Positions 14,433 through 17,891 of a stretch of 64,000 nt of DNA are shown here, piece by piece. The DNA lies in the NCBI GenBank assembly GCA_003209955.1, contig QCOD01000002.1, positions 603 to 64,602 of the forward strand, read 5' to 3'. Position 1 is the first letter of the stretch, and every line of letters starts with the position of its first letter. The notes beneath the pieces were generated by a model. That model worked only from the letters and a program-made list of their open reading frames with translations. It was not told the origin of the DNA and did not search any database. The stretch is from OCS116 cluster bacterium AG-430-B22. Its GTDB lineage: Bacteria > Pseudomonadota > Alphaproteobacteria > MED-G09. A program made the position numbers and the translations under genes.

Positions 14433-15155
14433 CTATCCAGTCTTTATATATCCAAAACTTCCCAAGATAGAAACATCTTTAATTTCAATATCTTCATAAT
14501 ATTCATCAACTGATATCATAAACTTATCTTGAATATTATATAGAACTGTAAAATTATATTTCTGTGATATCCAATTTTTACTTTCTTCATTGCATACTAG
14601 AATGGTTTTATTGTTTCGAGCCCTTTCGGGGTTAACTTGGCCTAATAAAAATCCAAGACAATCATTTTCAAATACAGGTAAACAACCAAATATATATATA
14701 TTCTTTGGTAAAGAATTTAACCACCAATCATTTTCTATTGGAAGAACTGCGATGAGATTTTTACTTTCTGAAATTTCTTTTATAACTTTAGAGCTTTCAT
14801 GATCAAAAGTTTGTTTTGCTTTTGATCCATAATAATTTCTTACCTCTTTGCTTAACTCACTACCTTGATTATCAGCTACAACAATTTCAAAAGAAGATTG
14901 AACAGAATTTGTTATAGTGCTTATAATTTCTCTCCAGATATACAAAATAGATTTACCATCAAGATGATTATTAGCCTTACTGTATAAATTCTCTAATAAA
15001 TCTATTTCTCTTCCAGGCTTAAGAATATCAACTCCTTCTGTTGCCTTTATTGAGGAAATTGATTTTACAATTTCCGCTCTTTGCAATATCGAAGATAATA
15101 TCCTATCATCTATTAAATCTATCTTTTCTCTAAGTTTATTTAATTCTTCTTTCAA
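14433..15155 (-). CDS. Chorismate mutase (AroQ domain plus C-terminal extension)
   Basis: LNKLREKIDLIDDRIL...R, PGRE. A GGAGG Shine-Dalgarno precedes an in-frame TTG at 15155, the likely start. Confidence 0.85.
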   Translation of the reverse strand: MKEELNKLREKIDLIDDRILSSILQRAEIVKSISSIKATEGVDILKPGREIDLLENLYSKANNHLDGKSILYIWREIISTITNSVQSSFEIVVADNQGSELSKEVRNYYGSKAKQTFDHESSKVIKEISESKNLIAVLPIENDWWLNSLPKNIYIFGCLPVFENDCLGFLLGQVNPERARNNKTILVCNEESKNWISQKYNFTVLYNIQDKFMISVDEYYEDIEIKDVSILGSFGYIKTG

Positions 15156-15251
15156 AAAAACCTCCACTGAAGAATAACTAACATAATAATGGTAATTATT
15201 TCTATTCATAATTTGTTTGCTTTTATTTTATTCATAATATAAATATCAAGG

Positions 15252-15335
15252 TGCATTAAGAAAGGGATTATCCCTGCCAACCTGCATACCGTGCGAAGGT
15301 GGTAATATATGTGGCCAAAAGGCAAAAATTAGGTC
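15252..15335 (+). ncRNA. SAM-I/IV (SAM-I clan variant) riboswitch aptamer
   Basis: P1 GCAT(15253-56)/ATGT(15309-12); J1/2 TAAGA; P2 AGGGA-TTA-TCCCT; P3 GCC-AA-CC...GG-T-GGT with a distal TGCAT/GTGCG stem; 3' hairpin GCC-AAAA-GGC. The SAM-contacting core of the SAM-I clan (A6-U88, U7-A87, G11, C44, A45, A46, U57, G58 equivalents) is present. Matched by eye. Confidence 0.8.
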
Positions 15336-15377
15336 TCATTTATTTTCTTAATTTTAACAGAGTTGGCCGCTTAAGGC

Positions 15378-15434
15378 TGGGTATTTGATTTTCAGATTGT
15401 GCACCCAAGATTTACTTAAAGCACTAAAGAGAGG
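15378..15434 (+). ncRNA. SAM-V riboswitch (H-type pseudoknot abutting the ompW RBS)
   Basis: P1 TGGGT/ACCCA flanks ATTTGA-N8-TTGTGC. The pseudoknot partner GCACTAAA (15421-28) runs straight into GAGAGG and ATG 15440. This follows the Pelagibacter SAM-V pattern (AUUUGA..UUGUAC..GUACUAAA) with a compensatory A-U to G-C change. Confidence 0.85.
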
Positions 15435-15439
15435 AAAAA

Positions 15440-16102
15440 ATGAAAAAATTAAATTTTATTAAAATCTTTTTTATATTTTGTTTATTAACATTTATTGGAT
15501 TGACAAATAATCCAGTATTTTCACAAGAAAGTACTTCTTTTAAAAGCGCAGGTAAATGGCTTGTTGGACTCAAGGTACTCAATCTTGATCCAGATGTTGA
15601 TTCCAATGTTTCAATTGGTGGAGAGGCAAAAGTGGATGATGATACTGTTCCTGAATTAGATATCAGGTATTTTATCACTGACAATATTGCTATAGAGGCT
15701 ATTTTTGGAACAACAGAGCATAATGTTTCTGTTGCTGGTTCAGCATTAGGTAATGTTAATTTAGGTACTGTAAAAGTTCTACCACCTACTTTTACTTTAC
15801 AATACCATTTTAATAGCGAAAGTAATTTTCTTCCATATATTGGCGCTGGAGTAAATTACACCTTTTTCTATGATGATAATCCTGGTGATGCTGTCGGCAT
15901 TAGCTATAAAGATGAAGTTGGCTTTGCATTAAATATTGGTTTTGATTATATATTAAGTGAAAATAATTATTTTAATATTGATATAAAAAAGTATGACCTT
16001 TCTACAGATGTAGTTGTAGATGCAGGTGCTGCAGGAATTGCAACAGCAGATGTCGATCTTGACCCATTAGCAATTAGTATAGGCTATGGATGGAGATTCT
16101 AG
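15440..16102 (+). CDS. ompW: OmpW-family outer-membrane beta-barrel
   Basis: Signal peptide, PELDIRYF, VLPPTFTLQYHF, PYIGAGVNYT, C-terminal GYGWRF. Confidence 0.92.
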   Translation: MKKLNFIKIFFIFCLLTFIGLTNNPVFSQESTSFKSAGKWLVGLKVLNLDPDVDSNVSIGGEAKVDDDTVPELDIRYFITDNIAIEAIFGTTEHNVSVAGSALGNVNLGTVKVLPPTFTLQYHFNSESNFLPYIGAGVNYTFFYDDNPGDAVGISYKDEVGFALNIGFDYILSENNYFNIDIKKYDLSTDVVVDAGAAGIATADVDLDPLAISIGYGWRF

Positions 16103-16153
16103 TAAATGTAATTCCTTAAATTACAAGAATCTATTATTTTATTCGGGATTATT

Positions 16154-17269
16154 ATGAATGAAGAACATAAAAAAAATGATTGTTTATTTTATAATGATCC
16201 CGAATCATTATTGCTAGAAAGTGGACAAATAATTAATGGTCACGATATAGCATATAAAACCTACGGGACATTAAATTCAAAAAAAGATAACGCAATACTA
16301 ATTTGTCATGCCCTATCAGGCGACCAATATGTTGCTAGTTCACACCCAATCACCAAGAAAGAGGGCTGGTGGGAAAGAATGGTTGGTAAAGATAAACCAA
16401 TAAATACTAGTCAATTTTTTGTTATATGCATAAATGTCTTAGGGGGATGTATGGGATCGACAGGGCCAGCATCCATTAATCCTGAAACCAATAAAGTATT
16501 TGCAGTAAATTTTCCGATAATAACAATAGCTGATATGGTTAAAGCTCAAGTTAGGTTAATAGATAACCTTGGAATAGAAAAATTAGTTTCTGTAATTGGT
16601 GGTTCTATGGGTGGTATGCAAGCTCTTGAATGGGCTGCTTCCTACCCTGAAAGATTGAAATCAGCAATTCCAATAGCTACTTCCTCCAGACATACTGCAC
16701 AAAATATTGCCTTTCATGAATTAGGTCGTCAGGCAATAATGGCTGATGTAAATTGGAATTCTGGAAATTATAAAGACAAAAATACTAATCCTTCAAAAGG
16801 CCTTTCAATTGCGAGGATGACAGCTCATGTTACTTATTTATCTGAAGCTTCACTAACAAAGAAATTTGGTAGAAAATTACAGGATAAAACAGATCTTGGT
16901 TTTGGTTTCGATGCTGATTTTCAAATTGAGAGTTACCTAAGACATCAAGGTCATACATTTGTTGATAGATTTGATGCTAACTCCTATCTATACATAACAA
17001 GGGCAATGGATTACTTTGACTTGGAAAAAACTCATAAAAAATCTCTTACAGAGATATATACTAACATTAATTTAAAATTCCTAATTGTATCATTTACCGG
17101 AGATTGGCTTTATCCAACATCTGAAAACTTATTGATTGTTAGGGCTCTCAGCGCCGGCGGGGTTGATGTAAGTTTTGTTGAAATTGACTCCGATAAAGGT
17201 CATGATGCATTTTTATTAGATGAGCCAGAATTTGATGTTTGTCTGGATGGATTTCTTAAATCATTATGA
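16154..17269 (+). CDS. metX: Homoserine O-acyltransferase (MetX family)
   Basis: CHALSGD, GGSMGGMQ nucleophile motif, RFDANSY, KGHDAFL. Confidence 0.96.
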   Translation: MNEEHKKNDCLFYNDPESLLLESGQIINGHDIAYKTYGTLNSKKDNAILICHALSGDQYVASSHPITKKEGWWERMVGKDKPINTSQFFVICINVLGGCMGSTGPASINPETNKVFAVNFPIITIADMVKAQVRLIDNLGIEKLVSVIGGSMGGMQALEWAASYPERLKSAIPIATSSRHTAQNIAFHELGRQAIMADVNWNSGNYKDKNTNPSKGLSIARMTAHVTYLSEASLTKKFGRKLQDKTDLGFGFDADFQIESYLRHQGHTFVDRFDANSYLYITRAMDYFDLEKTHKKSLTEIYTNINLKFLIVSFTGDWLYPTSENLLIVRALSAGGVDVSFVEIDSDKGHDAFLLDEPEFDVCLDGFLKSL

Positions 17270-17285
17270 TTAAAAAGCTACAATT

Positions 17286-17891
17286 ATGATTACATTAAGA
17301 AAAGACTTAGACCTTATAGCTAATCTTGTAGAAGATAACTCTAAAGTTATCGATATAGGTTGTGGTAATGGTGAATTACTTAATTTTTTGAGTAAAAATA
17401 AGAACTCAAAAATTCAAGGGCTAGAAATTAATCAGAAAAAAGTAAACAAATGTGTTTCAAAAGGCTTATCAGTTATTCAAGGAGATGCTGATAAGGATCT
17501 AGGCTTATATCCTGAAAAATCCTTTGATTATGTTATTCTTAGTCAAACTATTCAGGCAACACTTGAGCCTAAAAAAATTCTTACTGAACTAACAAGAATA
17601 GGTAAAAGAGCTATTGTTTCAATTCCCAATTTTGGATTCTGGAAAGTAAGACTCGGTCTTTTAGTAAAAGGCAAAATGCCAATAACTTCAAAATTAAACT
17701 CAACATGGTTTGAAACAGAAAATATTCACTTATGCACAATATCTGATTTTATAAATTTATGTGATGAATTGAATCTAAAAATTAAACAAACTGTTACCAT
17801 TGCATCCAACAAACAGAAAAGGTTTTCTGGAAAACCAAATAAATCAGCAAATATATTTGCTGAGGAAGCTATTTTTCTTATTCAAAATTAG
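17286..17891 (+). CDS. metW: Methionine biosynthesis protein MetW (SAM-binding fold)
   Basis: IDIGCGNG, FDYVILSQT, VSIPNFGFW, NIHLCT. Directly follows metX. Confidence 0.93.
   Translation: MITLRKDLDLIANLVEDNSKVIDIGCGNGELLNFLSKNKNSKIQGLEINQKKVNKCVSKGLSVIQGDADKDLGLYPEKSFDYVILSQTIQATLEPKKILTELTRIGKRAIVSIPNFGFWKVRLGLLVKGKMPITSKLNSTWFETENIHLCTISDFINLCDELNLKIKQTVTIASNKQKRFSGKPNKSANIFAEEAIFLIQN

What the first reader, a model, noticed from the sequence alone, without database searches (positions are those of the whole stretch)
15252..15442. Tandem riboswitch of two unrelated SAM classes: SAM-I/IV followed by SAM-V
Seen: a GC-enriched 190-nt leader containing two separate folds. The first has the SAM-I clan core (P1 GCAT/ATGT, AAGA junction, P3 GCC-AA-CC/GG-T-GGT with compensatory changes) and the 3' GCC-AAAA-GGC hairpin typical of SAM-I/IV. 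The second is a SAM-V pseudoknot (TGGGT-ATTTGA...TTGTGC-ACCCA...GCACTAAA) that abuts the GAGAGG RBS. Established: the described mixed SAM tandem in Pelagibacter is SAM-II plus SAM-V, both of the pseudoknot clan. Inference: this pairs a SAM-I clan aptamer with a SAM-II clan aptamer on one mRNA. I do not recall that combination being described. It could give a steeper or two-threshold SAM response, or combined transcriptional and translational control. The downstream metX-metW genes fit SAM as the ligand.
Basis: partly seen in the sequence, partly recalled or inferred. Interest (0 to 1): 0.85.

Follow-up and report, generated by a model that had tools for sequence, protein, structure and literature searches.

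The report
Tandem SAM-I/IV plus SAM-V riboswitch
One mRNA leader in a marine PS1/OCS116-clade alphaproteobacterium carries two structurally unrelated SAM-sensing RNA switches in series (SAM-I/IV, then SAM-V) ahead of an ompW-metX-metW operon; I did not find this pairing in the papers searched, but it is a new combination of known parts, not a new kind of switch.

Summary
Rfam covariance models place SAM-I/IV at 15248-15339 (59.5 bits, cut-off 41.1) and SAM-V at 15370-15437 (42.0 bits, cut-off 41). Both are on the + strand, do not overlap, and end 2 nt before the ATG of an OmpW-family gene followed by metX and metW.

The same tandem ahead of the same operon occurs in 22 loci from three genera of the same family (PS1/OCS116 clade) and in 38 marine metagenome contigs, including a GOS read. 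A 23-sequence alignment pairs in 98.6% of cells, with compensatory changes in both aptamers and in a conserved hairpin that abuts SAM-V.

Among 20 Pelagibacteraceae SAM-V loci, none has SAM-I/IV. There SAM-V follows SAM-II, usually with a canonical terminator.

The 2022 systematic survey of tandem riboswitches lists SAM-II/SAM-V, SAM-II→SAM-I/IV and two cases of SAM-I/IV→SAM-II, but not this pairing.

SAM-V very likely blocks the ribosome-binding site, as described for the class. How SAM-I/IV signals is unresolved:
- There is no canonical terminator.
- A strand-exchange helix between the linker and the aptamer's 5' part is significant only in a sister genus.
- The anti-SD reading did not beat shuffled controls.

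Verdict: real, conserved, a new variant of a known kind, of moderate interest.

The parts
15216..15243 (+). Promoter-like element: TTTGCT (15216-15221), 16-nt spacer, TATAAA (15238-15243). This would put the transcription start about 15249-15252, just 5' of P1 of the first aptamer.
   Evidence: Read from the sequence. The (T)TTGC(A/T) box with an A/T-rich -10-like hexamer 16-17 nt downstream recurs in all three genera, in otherwise variable AT-rich DNA. The strict sigma-70 scan did not call it. Inferred, not shown.
15248..15339 (+). SAM-I/IV aptamer. P1 15253-15256/15309-15312; P2 GGGA/TCCC hairpin 15266-15276; P3 15277-15304 with loop TACCG 15287-15291; 3' hairpin GCC-AAAA-GGC 15314-15323; A-rich tail; pseudoknot PK-2 between loop ACC(G) 15288-15291 and tail AGGT 15331-15334.
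   Evidence: RF01725 59.5 bits, GA 41.1. Counts on alignment A1: P1 outer pair AU 11 / GC 9 / GU 3; P2 has three pairs with double changes; PK-2 has CG 13 / AU 7 / UG 3 and CG 7 / GC 7 / UA 3; the 3' hairpin has UA 13 / CG 9.
15335..15362 (+). Pyrimidine/U-rich linker (CTCATTTATTTTCTTAATTTTAACAGAG). TTTTCTTAAT (15343-15352) is complementary to ATTAAGAAAG (15255-15264: inner P1, J1/2 and the 5' side of P2). TCATTT-A-TTTTCTT (15336-15349) is complementary to GAGGAAAA-AAATGA (SD to start codon).
   Evidence: RNAduplex: -7.3 kcal/mol with the aptamer 5' part and -9.4 with SD/AUG, neither beyond shuffles (z 0.1 and -1.1). In sister genus g2-b the equivalent helix is significant (z -3.8 to -5.3) and shows one U-A to C-G compensatory change (L003/L131/L145 against L007). 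Candidate switching strand; function inferred.
15363..15380 (+). Conserved hairpin HP (TTGGCC-GCTTAA-GGCTGG). Its core is GGCC 15365-15368 / GGCT 15375-15378. It abuts SAM-V P1 with zero spacing and can extend by U·G pairs into the first Gs of P1.
   Evidence: 100% of cells pair, with double changes at two of four pairs (UA 16 / CG 7; GC 22 / AU 1). Stability is -4 to -11.5 kcal/mol across lineages. It is absent from stand-alone SAM-V leaders of the same family and from Pelagibacteraceae SAM-II/SAM-V leaders. A similar small hairpin sits 2 nt before a SAM-V-like aptamer in L113, in addition to a canonical terminator. It was flagged as terminator-like only by a loose pattern scan.
15370..15437 (+). 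SAM-V aptamer (H-type pseudoknot). P1 GGGT 15379-15382 / ACCC 15403-15406; third strand ATTTGAT 15383-15389; P2 TTGTGC 15397-15402 / GCAC-T-AA 15421-15427; P3 AAG/CTT 15407-15417; A-minor AAA 15418-15420. A possible P2a forms between TTTC 15390-15393 and GAGA 15429-15432.
   Evidence: RF01826 42.0 bits, GA 41. The consensus strings of the binding site are identical. P3 covaries (AU 21 / GC 2). P1 changes from GGGU/ACCC to AGGU/ACCU in stand-alone copies of the same family. The anatomy was compared with the metY SAM-V crystal structure paper (PMC6061858).
15429..15442 (+). Shine-Dalgarno GAGAGG (15429-15434) and start codon ATG (15440-15442) of ompW. The SD begins 2 nt after the SAM-V P2 3' strand.
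   Evidence: Sequence. AAAGAGAGG plus the A-rich spacer is invariant or nearly so in 46 unique leaders.
15440..17891 (+). Regulated operon: ompW-family porin (15440-16102), homoserine O-acetyltransferase metX (16154-17269) and metW (17286-17891).
   Evidence: Pfam OmpW 1.1e-47 and MetW 2.9e-75. NCBIfam MetX NF001209 521 bits, above its cut-off of 331, and metW TIGR02081 240.6 bits. The same three genes follow the tandem in genera g2 (L044) and g3 (L049).

Best explanation
The 190-nt leader of the ompW-metX-metW operon holds two separate SAM-binding aptamers of unrelated folds on one transcript. The first is a SAM-I/IV junction-type aptamer; the second is a SAM-V H-type pseudoknot. Together they most likely act as a double OFF switch when SAM is plentiful.

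Shown:
- Both aptamers match their families.
- They are kept together, in this order and ahead of this operon, throughout the PS1/OCS116 family.
- Their helices covary.

Inferred from the family (Huang and Lilley 2018):
- SAM binding locks the SAM-V triplex.
- A short helix (TTTC/GAGA) then forms that covers the Shine-Dalgarno sequence, which starts 2 nt after the pseudoknot.

Inferred, weaker:
- SAM-I/IV signals by strand exchange. Without SAM, the U/C-rich linker invades the 5' side of the aptamer (P1, J1/2 and P2, a purine tract that resembles the SD).
- With SAM, the linker is released and can pair with the real SD/AUG about 90 nt downstream, closing a helix around the hairpin HP and SAM-V.
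- On this reading both sensors act on the same ribosome-binding site at the level of translation.
- HP is a structural arm or insulator that stacks on SAM-V P1, not a terminator.

The confidence given (0.75) is for the core claim: two real, co-transcribed SAM aptamers repressing this operon. For the strand-exchange/anti-SD output of SAM-I/IV taken alone I would give about 0.4.
For: Family matches. Single copy of each family in the genome.

Conservation:
- 22 related loci in three genera carry both aptamers, 33-55 nt apart.
- 38 true metagenome hits carry the tandem, including GOS AACY020436349.1 and TARA contigs.
- ompW-metX-metW follows the tandem in all three genera.

Structure: 98.6% of cells pair, 10 pairs have double changes, 0 of 500 shuffles reach this, and slid controls pair at only 37-46%.

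SAM-V to SD logic:
- The SD starts 2 nt after P2, and a P2a-like TTTC/GAGA can form, matching the published mechanism.
- Stand-alone SAM-V copies in the same family have the same SD placement.

Strand exchange:
- In genus g2-b the aptamer-5'/linker duplex is -16 to -22 kcal/mol against -7 to -9.5 for shuffles (z -3.8 to -5.3).
- One U-A to C-G compensatory change supports it.
- Every lineage has its own 7-15 bp complement to P1-5'/J1/2 in the linker.
- A stand-alone SAM-I/IV in another alphaproteobacterium (L112) uses this design, with an anti-SD strand CAGCCUCCUC matching both the aptamer's GAGAGGGCUG and the SD GGAGG.
- In the window's own sequence, blocking the SAM-I/IV residues lowers predicted SD accessibility from 0.90 to 0.23 and AUG accessibility from 0.74 to 0.01.

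Against a terminator role for HP:
- The stems are weak.
- There is no U run.
- Pelagibacteraceae SAM-II/SAM-V leaders have canonical GC stems followed by U8-10 instead.
Against: - No binding, probing or transcript data exist.
- The SAM-V hit is 1 bit above the cut-off in this genome and below it in 7 related tandem loci.
- In the window's own genus the linker/aptamer helix (z about 0, p 0.14) and the linker/SD helix (z -1.1) are no better than composition-matched shuffles.
- With dinucleotide-shuffled linkers, SD occlusion is as good as native in most lineages: the fraction at or below native is 0.07-0.09 in g1-a and 0.4-0.9 in g2. The anti-SD step is therefore compatible with the data but not demonstrated.
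- The SD region is invariant, so covariation cannot test it.
- HP can pair into the first Gs of SAM-V P1 and is followed by UAUUUGAUUUU, so a pause or weak terminator role is not excluded.
Confidence: 0.75

Rival explanations
1. Bi-mechanism tandem like SAM-II/SAM-V. SAM-I/IV controls transcription through HP acting as an intrinsic terminator whose U-tract is the U-rich third strand of SAM-V (UAUUUGAUUUU). SAM-V controls translation of the transcripts that read through.
For: - HP plus GTATTTGATT is called terminator-like by the pattern scan.
- HP is present only in the tandem context, not before stand-alone SAM-V.
- HP abuts the U-rich tract with zero spacing in every lineage.
- It would be analogous to the published SAM-II/terminator/SAM-V design.
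- g3 leaders carry an extra hairpin followed by UGUUUC in the linker.
- The third strand is slightly more U-rich in tandem copies than in stand-alone copies.
Against: - No SAM-dependent antiterminator could be found. The one candidate (P1-3'/P4 GUGGCCAA with HP 5' strand UUGGCCGC) varies against pairing: U·G in two lineages and C·A in five.
- The strand-exchange helix seen in g2 does not overlap HP, so HP would form in both states.
- The stems are only -4 to -11.5 kcal/mol and the U-tract is interrupted.
- Terminator-like sites in the window are at chance level, 10 against 8.9 ± 3.3.
- Real riboswitch terminators in comparable streamlined genomes are GC stems followed by U8-10.
- L113 has both a canonical terminator and an HP-like hairpin, which shows they are different elements.
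Confidence: 0.15
2. Only SAM-V is a working switch. [quoted passage not shown] It might act only as a folding or stability element of the 5' end.
For: - In the bhmT SAM-II/SAM-V RNA, the upstream aptamer does not respond to SAM in the full-length context because of the linker (PMC11508383).
- No statistically supported expression platform for SAM-I/IV exists in the window's genus.
Against: - The SAM-I/IV core, P1 and PK-2 are under clear purifying and compensatory selection across three genera and 46 unique sequences. That is hard to explain without ligand-dependent function.
- The g2-b strand-exchange helix and its compensatory change indicate an actual switch.
Confidence: 0.12
3. SAM-I/IV controls mRNA fate rather than initiation. 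SAM binding frees the U/C-rich, G-poor linker as a single strand that recruits RNase E or Rho, lowering transcript level. SAM-V blocks translation independently.
For: - The linker is U/C-rich and poor in G in all lineages.
- Shuffled linkers do as well as native ones in pairing tests. This is expected if composition rather than exact sequence is what is selected.
Against: - There is no direct evidence.
- The linker is short (about 28 nt), well below typical rut sites.
- Lineage-specific complementarity to P1-5'/J1/2 shows that sequence, not only composition, matters for at least one partner.
Confidence: 0.08

Closest known systems
[quoted passage not shown] 2009, as summarised in Sherlock et al. 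2022, PMC9481103; Feng et al. 2024, PMC11508383)
   Same: - Two different SAM aptamer classes sit in series on one leader.
- SAM-V is always the downstream partner, next to the SD.
- The hosts are marine, streamlined Alphaproteobacteria.
- The regulated genes belong to methionine and sulfur metabolism.
- Both switches are expected to be OFF switches.
   Different: - The upstream partner here is a SAM-I-clan junction aptamer, not a pseudoknot related to SAM-V.
- There is no canonical terminator between the aptamers, whereas Pelagibacteraceae leaders show a GC stem followed by U8-10.
- A covarying hairpin abuts SAM-V P1.
- The host is the PS1/OCS116 family, not Pelagibacteraceae.
- The first gene is an OmpW porin.
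- None of 20 Pelagibacteraceae SAM-V loci had SAM-I/IV.
SAM-I/IV followed by SAM-II, and SAM-II followed by SAM-I/IV (Sherlock et al. 2022, PMC9481103: 2 and 7 examples)
   Same: A SAM-I/IV aptamer is combined with an H-type pseudoknot SAM aptamer on one leader. In the two-example case the order is the same as here.
   Different: - The published partner is SAM-II, not SAM-V.
- Those cases are few and are described in two sentences, without anatomy.
- The authors suggest they may be merely pseudo-cooperative.
- I could not see their sequences because no supplements are held. I therefore cannot exclude that they resemble this leader, although RF00521 gave no hit here at E ≤ 0.1.
Stand-alone SAM-I/IV riboswitches (Weinberg et al. 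2010, RF01725), for example the one in locus L112
   Same: The aptamer core, the lack of an internal loop in P2, the 3' hairpin and the A-rich tail are the same. So is a purine tract in J1/2-P2 (GAGAGGG) that resembles an SD and is complementary to a downstream pyrimidine strand.
   Different: In L112 the anti-SD strand and the SD are about 20 nt apart and form one hairpin. Here about 90 nt, holding HP and a whole second aptamer, lie between the candidate anti-SD strand and the SD.
Stand-alone SAM-V riboswitches (metY, bhmT, mmuM of Pelagibacter; structure 2018, PMC6061858)
   Same: P1, the P2 triplex strings, the 3-bp P3, the AAA A-minor stretch, and an SD immediately 3' with a potential short P2a.
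   Different: - P1 is GGGU/ACCC rather than GGC/GCC.
- The linker between the third strand and P2 is 2 nt longer.
- The score is near the Rfam cut-off (42 bits against 45-85 in Pelagibacteraceae).
- There is a 5' hairpin.

Membership tests
SAM-I/IV riboswitch aptamer (RF01725) | Covariance-model score above the curated gathering threshold over the full model | tested here: met
   59.5 bits against 41.1, model positions 1-99 of 99. Related loci score 53.5-66 bits.
SAM-I/IV riboswitch aptamer (RF01725) | SAM-I-type core: P1, the J1/2 purines, and P3 with the CCAACC / AGGUG internal loop | tested here: met
   All upper-case consensus positions are matched in the cmscan alignment. CCAACCUGC and GCGAAGGUGG are invariant in 23 sequences. 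P1 and P2 covary.
SAM-I/IV riboswitch aptamer (RF01725) | P2 without an internal loop or kink-turn, plus a 3' hairpin after P1 (the features that set it apart from SAM-I and SAM-IV, Weinberg 2010) | tested here: met
   P2 is a plain 4-5 bp hairpin (GGGA-UUA-UCCC). The 3' hairpin GCC-AAAA-GGC covaries, UA 13 / CG 9.
SAM-I/IV riboswitch aptamer (RF01725) | Pseudoknot between the P3 loop and the 3' tail (recalled from the env87 structure paper, Trausch et al. 2014, which I did not read here) | tested here: met
   Loop ACC(G/UU) pairs with tail (C/AA)GGU. Two of four pairs show double changes and 91% of cells pair.
SAM-I/IV riboswitch aptamer (RF01725) | Selective binding of SAM | not testable with these tools
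   Needs in-line probing or ITC. The gene context (metX, metW) fits SAM.
SAM-V riboswitch aptamer (RF01826) | Covariance-model score above the curated gathering threshold | tested here: met
   42.0 bits against 41 in the window, a narrow margin. In related tandem loci, 15 of 22 are at or above 41 and 7 are below, at 33.6-40.6.
SAM-V riboswitch aptamer (RF01826) | H-type pseudoknot with P1 and P2, and a U-rich third strand forming the major-groove triplex that holds SAM (U:A.U triples around the sulfonium; PMC6061858) | tested here: met
   P1 is GGGU/ACCC (100% paired; AGGU/ACCU in stand-alone copies). P2 is UUGUGC/GCAC-U-AA. The third strand AUUUGA and the strand AAAGCACUAAA are identical to the family consensus. 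The triplex itself cannot be computed.
SAM-V riboswitch aptamer (RF01826) | A short P3 hairpin between P1 and P2, which is absent in SAM-II, followed by conserved adenines | tested here: met
   AAG-AUUUA-CUU followed by AAA. One pair changes from A-U to G-C in g3.
SAM-V riboswitch aptamer (RF01826) | Shine-Dalgarno sequence immediately 3' of P2, able to form a short P2a with the nucleotides after the third strand | tested here: met
   GAGAGG starts 2 nt after P2. UUUC (15390-15393) can pair with GAGA (15429-15432). That it functions as an OFF switch is inferred.
Bi-mechanism tandem riboswitch (transcription terminator after aptamer 1, SD occlusion by aptamer 2; Sherlock 2022) | An intrinsic terminator (a strong stem plus a U run) between the two aptamers | tested here: not met
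   Only HP lies there, at -4 to -11.5 kcal/mol with an interrupted U tract. No antiterminator was found. Canonical terminators are present in Pelagibacteraceae and L113 leaders for comparison.
Tandem riboswitch on one transcript | Both aptamers are transcribed on the same mRNA from a start upstream of the first | tested here: inconclusive
   A conserved promoter-like box lies at 15216-15243 and there is no room or signal for a promoter in the 30-nt gap.

The most novel reading that the evidence does not exclude
The two unrelated aptamers do not act as two independent switches. They converge on one ribosome-binding site in a nested architecture. The SAM-I/IV anti-SD strand pairs with the SD/AUG across the whole SAM-V domain, forming a three-way junction whose arms are the anti-SD:SD helix, HP and the SAM-V pseudoknot. 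SAM binding at either aptamer would then stabilise the closed state of the other. This would be a structurally coupled, truly cooperative sensor built from two different folds for the same ligand.
Probability: 0.2. Interest if true: 0.75.

Novelty: new variant of a known kind. Interest (0 to 1): 0.5.

Why it matters
Heterologous tandems for one ligand are rare. Until now the SAM-V class had one known upstream partner (SAM-II) and essentially one host group (SAR11). This leader shows three things:
- SAM-V also exists in the abundant PS1/OCS116 clade.
- It has been combined there with an aptamer of a completely different fold.
- The tandem was built without the terminator that defines the published 'bi-mechanism' design.

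It therefore offers a natural test of what a second sensor for the same ligand adds when both probably act on translation: a steeper response, two thresholds, or coupling through RNA structure.

It also places an outer-membrane OmpW channel at the head of a SAM-repressed methionine operon. That points to uptake of a methionine or sulfur precursor in a lineage with a very small genome.

A practical point for surveys: the PS1 SAM-V copies score at or just below the Rfam threshold (33-45 bits), so threshold-based searches for tandems would miss them. That may be why the arrangement is absent from the 2022 survey, even though it is present in GOS data.

Tried and rejected
1. HP as the SAM-I/IV terminator. 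Considered seriously and down-weighted; the reasons are given under the rival explanations.

2. Antiterminator between P1-3'/P4 (GUGGCCAA) and the HP 5' strand. It gives 8 bp in the window, but the natural variants change against pairing.

3. AAAAAUUAG/CUUAAUUUU hairpin in the window's MFE. It is broken in the abundant L016 lineage, so it is not conserved.

4. Extension of HP into the SAM-V third strand (AGUUAA/UUUGAU). It is present in some g2-b and g1-a sequences and absent in g1-b and g2-a.

5. A conserved upstream ORF after the PK-2 tail, which sits where SAM-I/IV consensus RNAs have AGGAG. No shared start codon or reading frame exists.

6. Statistical support for the anti-SD step. The contiguous-helix test and the SD-accessibility test with dinucleotide-shuffled linkers were both not significant. 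One script timed out first.

7. OmpW under SAM control outside the family. Twenty OmpW loci from Parvibaculum, Thalassospira, Azospirillum and others have no SAM riboswitch.

8. Whether the tandem travels with the AlkB-like oxygenase cassette seen behind locus L025. Four homologues at 66-73% identity have no riboswitch upstream.

10. Literature. Poiata et al. 2009 is not held. The supplements of the 2022 tandem survey are not held.
Full report
**What is there**

The 230-bp gap lies between a divergently transcribed chorismate-mutase-domain gene (14433-15209, minus strand) and an OmpW-family gene (15440-16102). It gives two of the three gathering-threshold Rfam hits in the 64-kb window:
- SAM-I/IV (RF01725) at 15248-15339: 59.5 bits against a cut-off of 41.1.
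- SAM-V (RF01826) at 15370-15437: 42.0 bits against 41.

Both are on the + strand, both match their full models, and they are 30 nt apart.

The leader has 38% G+C in a 31% window. Each family has exactly one hit in the 1.24-Mb, 34-contig genome.

Behind the leader come three genes:
- ompW;
- metX (NCBIfam NF001209, 521 bits);
- metW (TIGR02081, 241 bits).

**Is it more than chance?**

The SAM-V score alone would be marginal, but the comparative evidence is not.

Among 61 relatives, SAM-V hits occur only in the window's own family. In 22 loci from all three of its genera, a SAM-I/IV hit of 53-66 bits lies 33-55 nt upstream of SAM-V on the same strand.

Record titles identify the family as the marine PS1/OCS116 clade: 'Rhodobiaceae bacterium' MAGs, MED-G09, and PS1 and OCS116 single-cell genomes.

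An exact-pattern scan of metagenome contigs found 39 matches. One is a chance hit in GC-rich coding DNA; the other 38 are this leader. They include a Global Ocean Sampling read and TARA contigs.

On a MAFFT alignment of 23 leaders, a hand-written structure covering both aptamers, both pseudoknots and the hairpin between them gave:
- 98.6% of 943 cells paired;
- 10 pairs with changes on both sides;
- 0 of 500 shuffles reaching any of the main measures;
- only 37-46% pairing when partners are slid.

Compensatory changes are seen in SAM-I/IV P1, P2, the 3' hairpin and the loop-tail pseudoknot, in the intervening hairpin, and in SAM-V P3. SAM-V P1 and P2 are invariant in the tandem. Stand-alone SAM-V copies in genus g2 have AGGU/ACCU instead of GGGU/ACCC.

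**Anatomy beyond the two aptamers**

1. A TTTGC(A/T) box followed 16-17 nt later by an A/T-rich hexamer is kept upstream of P1 in all three genera. This would start transcription a few nucleotides before the first aptamer. The strict promoter scan did not call it.

2. After the pseudoknot tail comes a U/C-rich linker whose sequence differs between lineages.

3. A 4-9 bp hairpin (HP, 15363-15380) always ends exactly where SAM-V P1 begins. It covaries and can extend by U·G pairs into the first Gs of P1. Three comparisons bear on what HP is:
   - It is missing from stand-alone SAM-V leaders of the same family.
   - It is missing from Pelagibacteraceae leaders.
   - One unrelated alphaproteobacterial leader (L113) has a similar small hairpin before a SAM-V-like aptamer, in addition to a textbook terminator.

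**Mechanism**

*SAM-V.* The published model applies directly. The SD (GAGAGG, 15429-15434) begins 2 nt after P2. The nucleotides following the third strand (UUUC) can form the short P2a helix with GAGA that SAM binding is proposed to stabilise (PMC6061858).

*SAM-I/IV.* I looked for an expression platform in three ways.

First, as a terminator. HP followed by GUAUUUGAUU is picked up by a loose pattern scan. Several points count against it:
- The stems are weak, -4 to -11.5 kcal/mol.
- The U tract is interrupted.
- Such sites are at chance frequency in this window.
- I found no antiterminator that survives natural variation.
- SAM-II/SAM-V leaders of Pelagibacteraceae show what a real terminator looks like in this setting: a GC stem followed by U8-10.

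Second, as strand exchange. Unconstrained folds of most g2 leaders pair the linker with the 5' side of the aptamer: upstream flank, P1 5' strand, J1/2 and P2 5' strand.
- In g2-b this duplex is far better than shuffles (z -3.8 to -5.3).
- A U-to-C change in the aptamer of one lineage is matched by A-to-G in its linker.
- Every lineage has its own 7-15 bp complement.
- In the window's genus, however, the 10-bp helix AUUAAGAAAG/UUUUCUUAAU is not beyond what U-rich and A/G-rich sequences give by chance.

Third, as an anti-SD. The aptamer's purine tract resembles the SD, so the same linker can pair with the SD/AUG.
- In the window this is UCAUUU-A-UUUUCUU with GAGGAAAA-AAAUGA, at -9.4 kcal/mol.
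- Removing the SAM-I/IV residues from the fold lowers predicted SD accessibility from 0.90 to 0.23.
- A stand-alone SAM-I/IV in a GC-rich alphaproteobacterium uses exactly this logic over a short distance.
- With dinucleotide-shuffled linkers, however, SD occlusion is about as good.

I therefore rank the options as follows. Strand exchange with an anti-SD output is the best available reading. A terminator is unlikely. The question stays open.

**Comparison with what is known**

The 2022 systematic survey of tandem riboswitches (PMC9481103) lists the following 'bi-mechanism' or mixed SAM tandems, and nothing for SAM-I/IV with SAM-V:
- SAM-II/SAM-V: 149 examples;
- SAM-II then SAM-I/IV: 7 examples;
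- SAM-I/IV then SAM-II: 2 examples.

The paper that described SAM-I/IV and its supplement mention no tandem. Other papers naming both Rfam families do not describe one.

In my own survey of 401 alphaproteobacterial species genomes, SAM-V hits fell into four groups:
- the PS1 family;
- a Pelagibacter-type genome;
- a weak hit forming a SAM-II-type tandem (L113);
- a weak hit in locus L112, where SAM-I/IV and a SAM-V-like element control two successive small ORFs rather than sharing one leader.

Twenty Pelagibacteraceae SAM-V loci have no SAM-I/IV at gathering threshold.

The pairing is therefore new as far as I can see, and it is confined to one family. The principle, a SAM-I-clan aptamer plus a pseudoknot SAM aptamer, is already in print. 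PS1 SAM-V copies score at or below the Rfam threshold, which may be why surveys missed them.

**Verdict**

- ompW is the first regulated gene.
- There is no evidence for a transcriptional arm.
- A closely related pairing has been published.

This is a new variant of a known kind, of moderate interest. The open point that could raise its value is whether the two aptamers are structurally coupled through a shared ribosome-binding site.

Noticed in passing
window 15440-16102: The gene directly under the double switch is an OmpW-family outer-membrane barrel with a signal peptide, not a methionine enzyme. ompW-metX-metW is conserved behind the tandem in all three genera. OmpW homologues outside the family (Parvibaculum, Thalassospira, Azospirillum and others) have no SAM riboswitch.
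   Followed up: partly
L025:1-1722 (genome G011, same genus): A second, more diverged SAM-I/IV + SAM-V tandem in a relative's genome. Its linker is longer and carries an extra 7-bp hairpin. It precedes a 382-aa FA_desaturase/AlkB-like membrane oxygenase and a 2Fe-2S ferredoxin, the cassette that earlier notes of this scan describe as SAM-controlled in other marine bacteria. Four homologues at 66-73% identity had no riboswitch upstream.
   Followed up: partly
L024, L026-L030 (genus g2), e.g. L026:1501-2854: Stand-alone SAM-V copies (P1 AGGU/ACCU, no upstream hairpin, promoter-like sequence directly upstream) precede a 428-aa protein starting MTTLNLTANDD. It has no Pfam or NCBIfam match.
   Followed up: partly
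L112:1055-1842 (genome G402, 5.1 Mb, GC-rich alphaproteobacterium): A SAM-I/IV aptamer (71 bits) with an anti-SD/terminator-like hairpin controls an 85-aa ORF. A SAM-V-like element (38.6 bits) directly after it controls an 89-aa ORF. Both small proteins lack any Pfam match. This is a 'switch, small gene, switch, small gene' layout.
   Followed up: partly
L113:1348-1531 (genome G192, 2.5 Mb): A SAM-II-like aptamer (28.5 bits), a canonical terminator, a small hairpin with a CUUAAC loop, and a SAM-V-like aptamer (34.9 bits) lie in series in a genome that is not Pelagibacter-sized. This suggests the SAM-II/SAM-V tandem is not confined to SAR11.
   Followed up: no
L111, L159-L187 (Pelagibacteraceae): The SAM-II-like aptamers visible by eye upstream of SAM-V (GCCGAUUU...UUGCGGGC...CAGCUAAA) do not reach the RF00521 gathering score in these loci. 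Some leaders (L111, L159, L181, L182) have no terminator between the two aptamers.
   Followed up: no
L021, L022, L137 (genus g3), linker region: g3 leaders carry an extra hairpin (AGGCU-UUUA-AGUCU followed by UGUUUC) inserted in the linker. Their HP 5' strand plus loop (CUCUCUUU) is an 8-nt perfect complement of the SD region AAAGAGAG.
   Followed up: no
window 14433-15209 (minus strand): The divergent neighbour is a 258-aa protein with a chorismate mutase type II domain in its N-terminal part, followed upstream by a class I/II aminotransferase. It shares the 230-bp intergenic region with the riboswitch leader.
   Followed up: no
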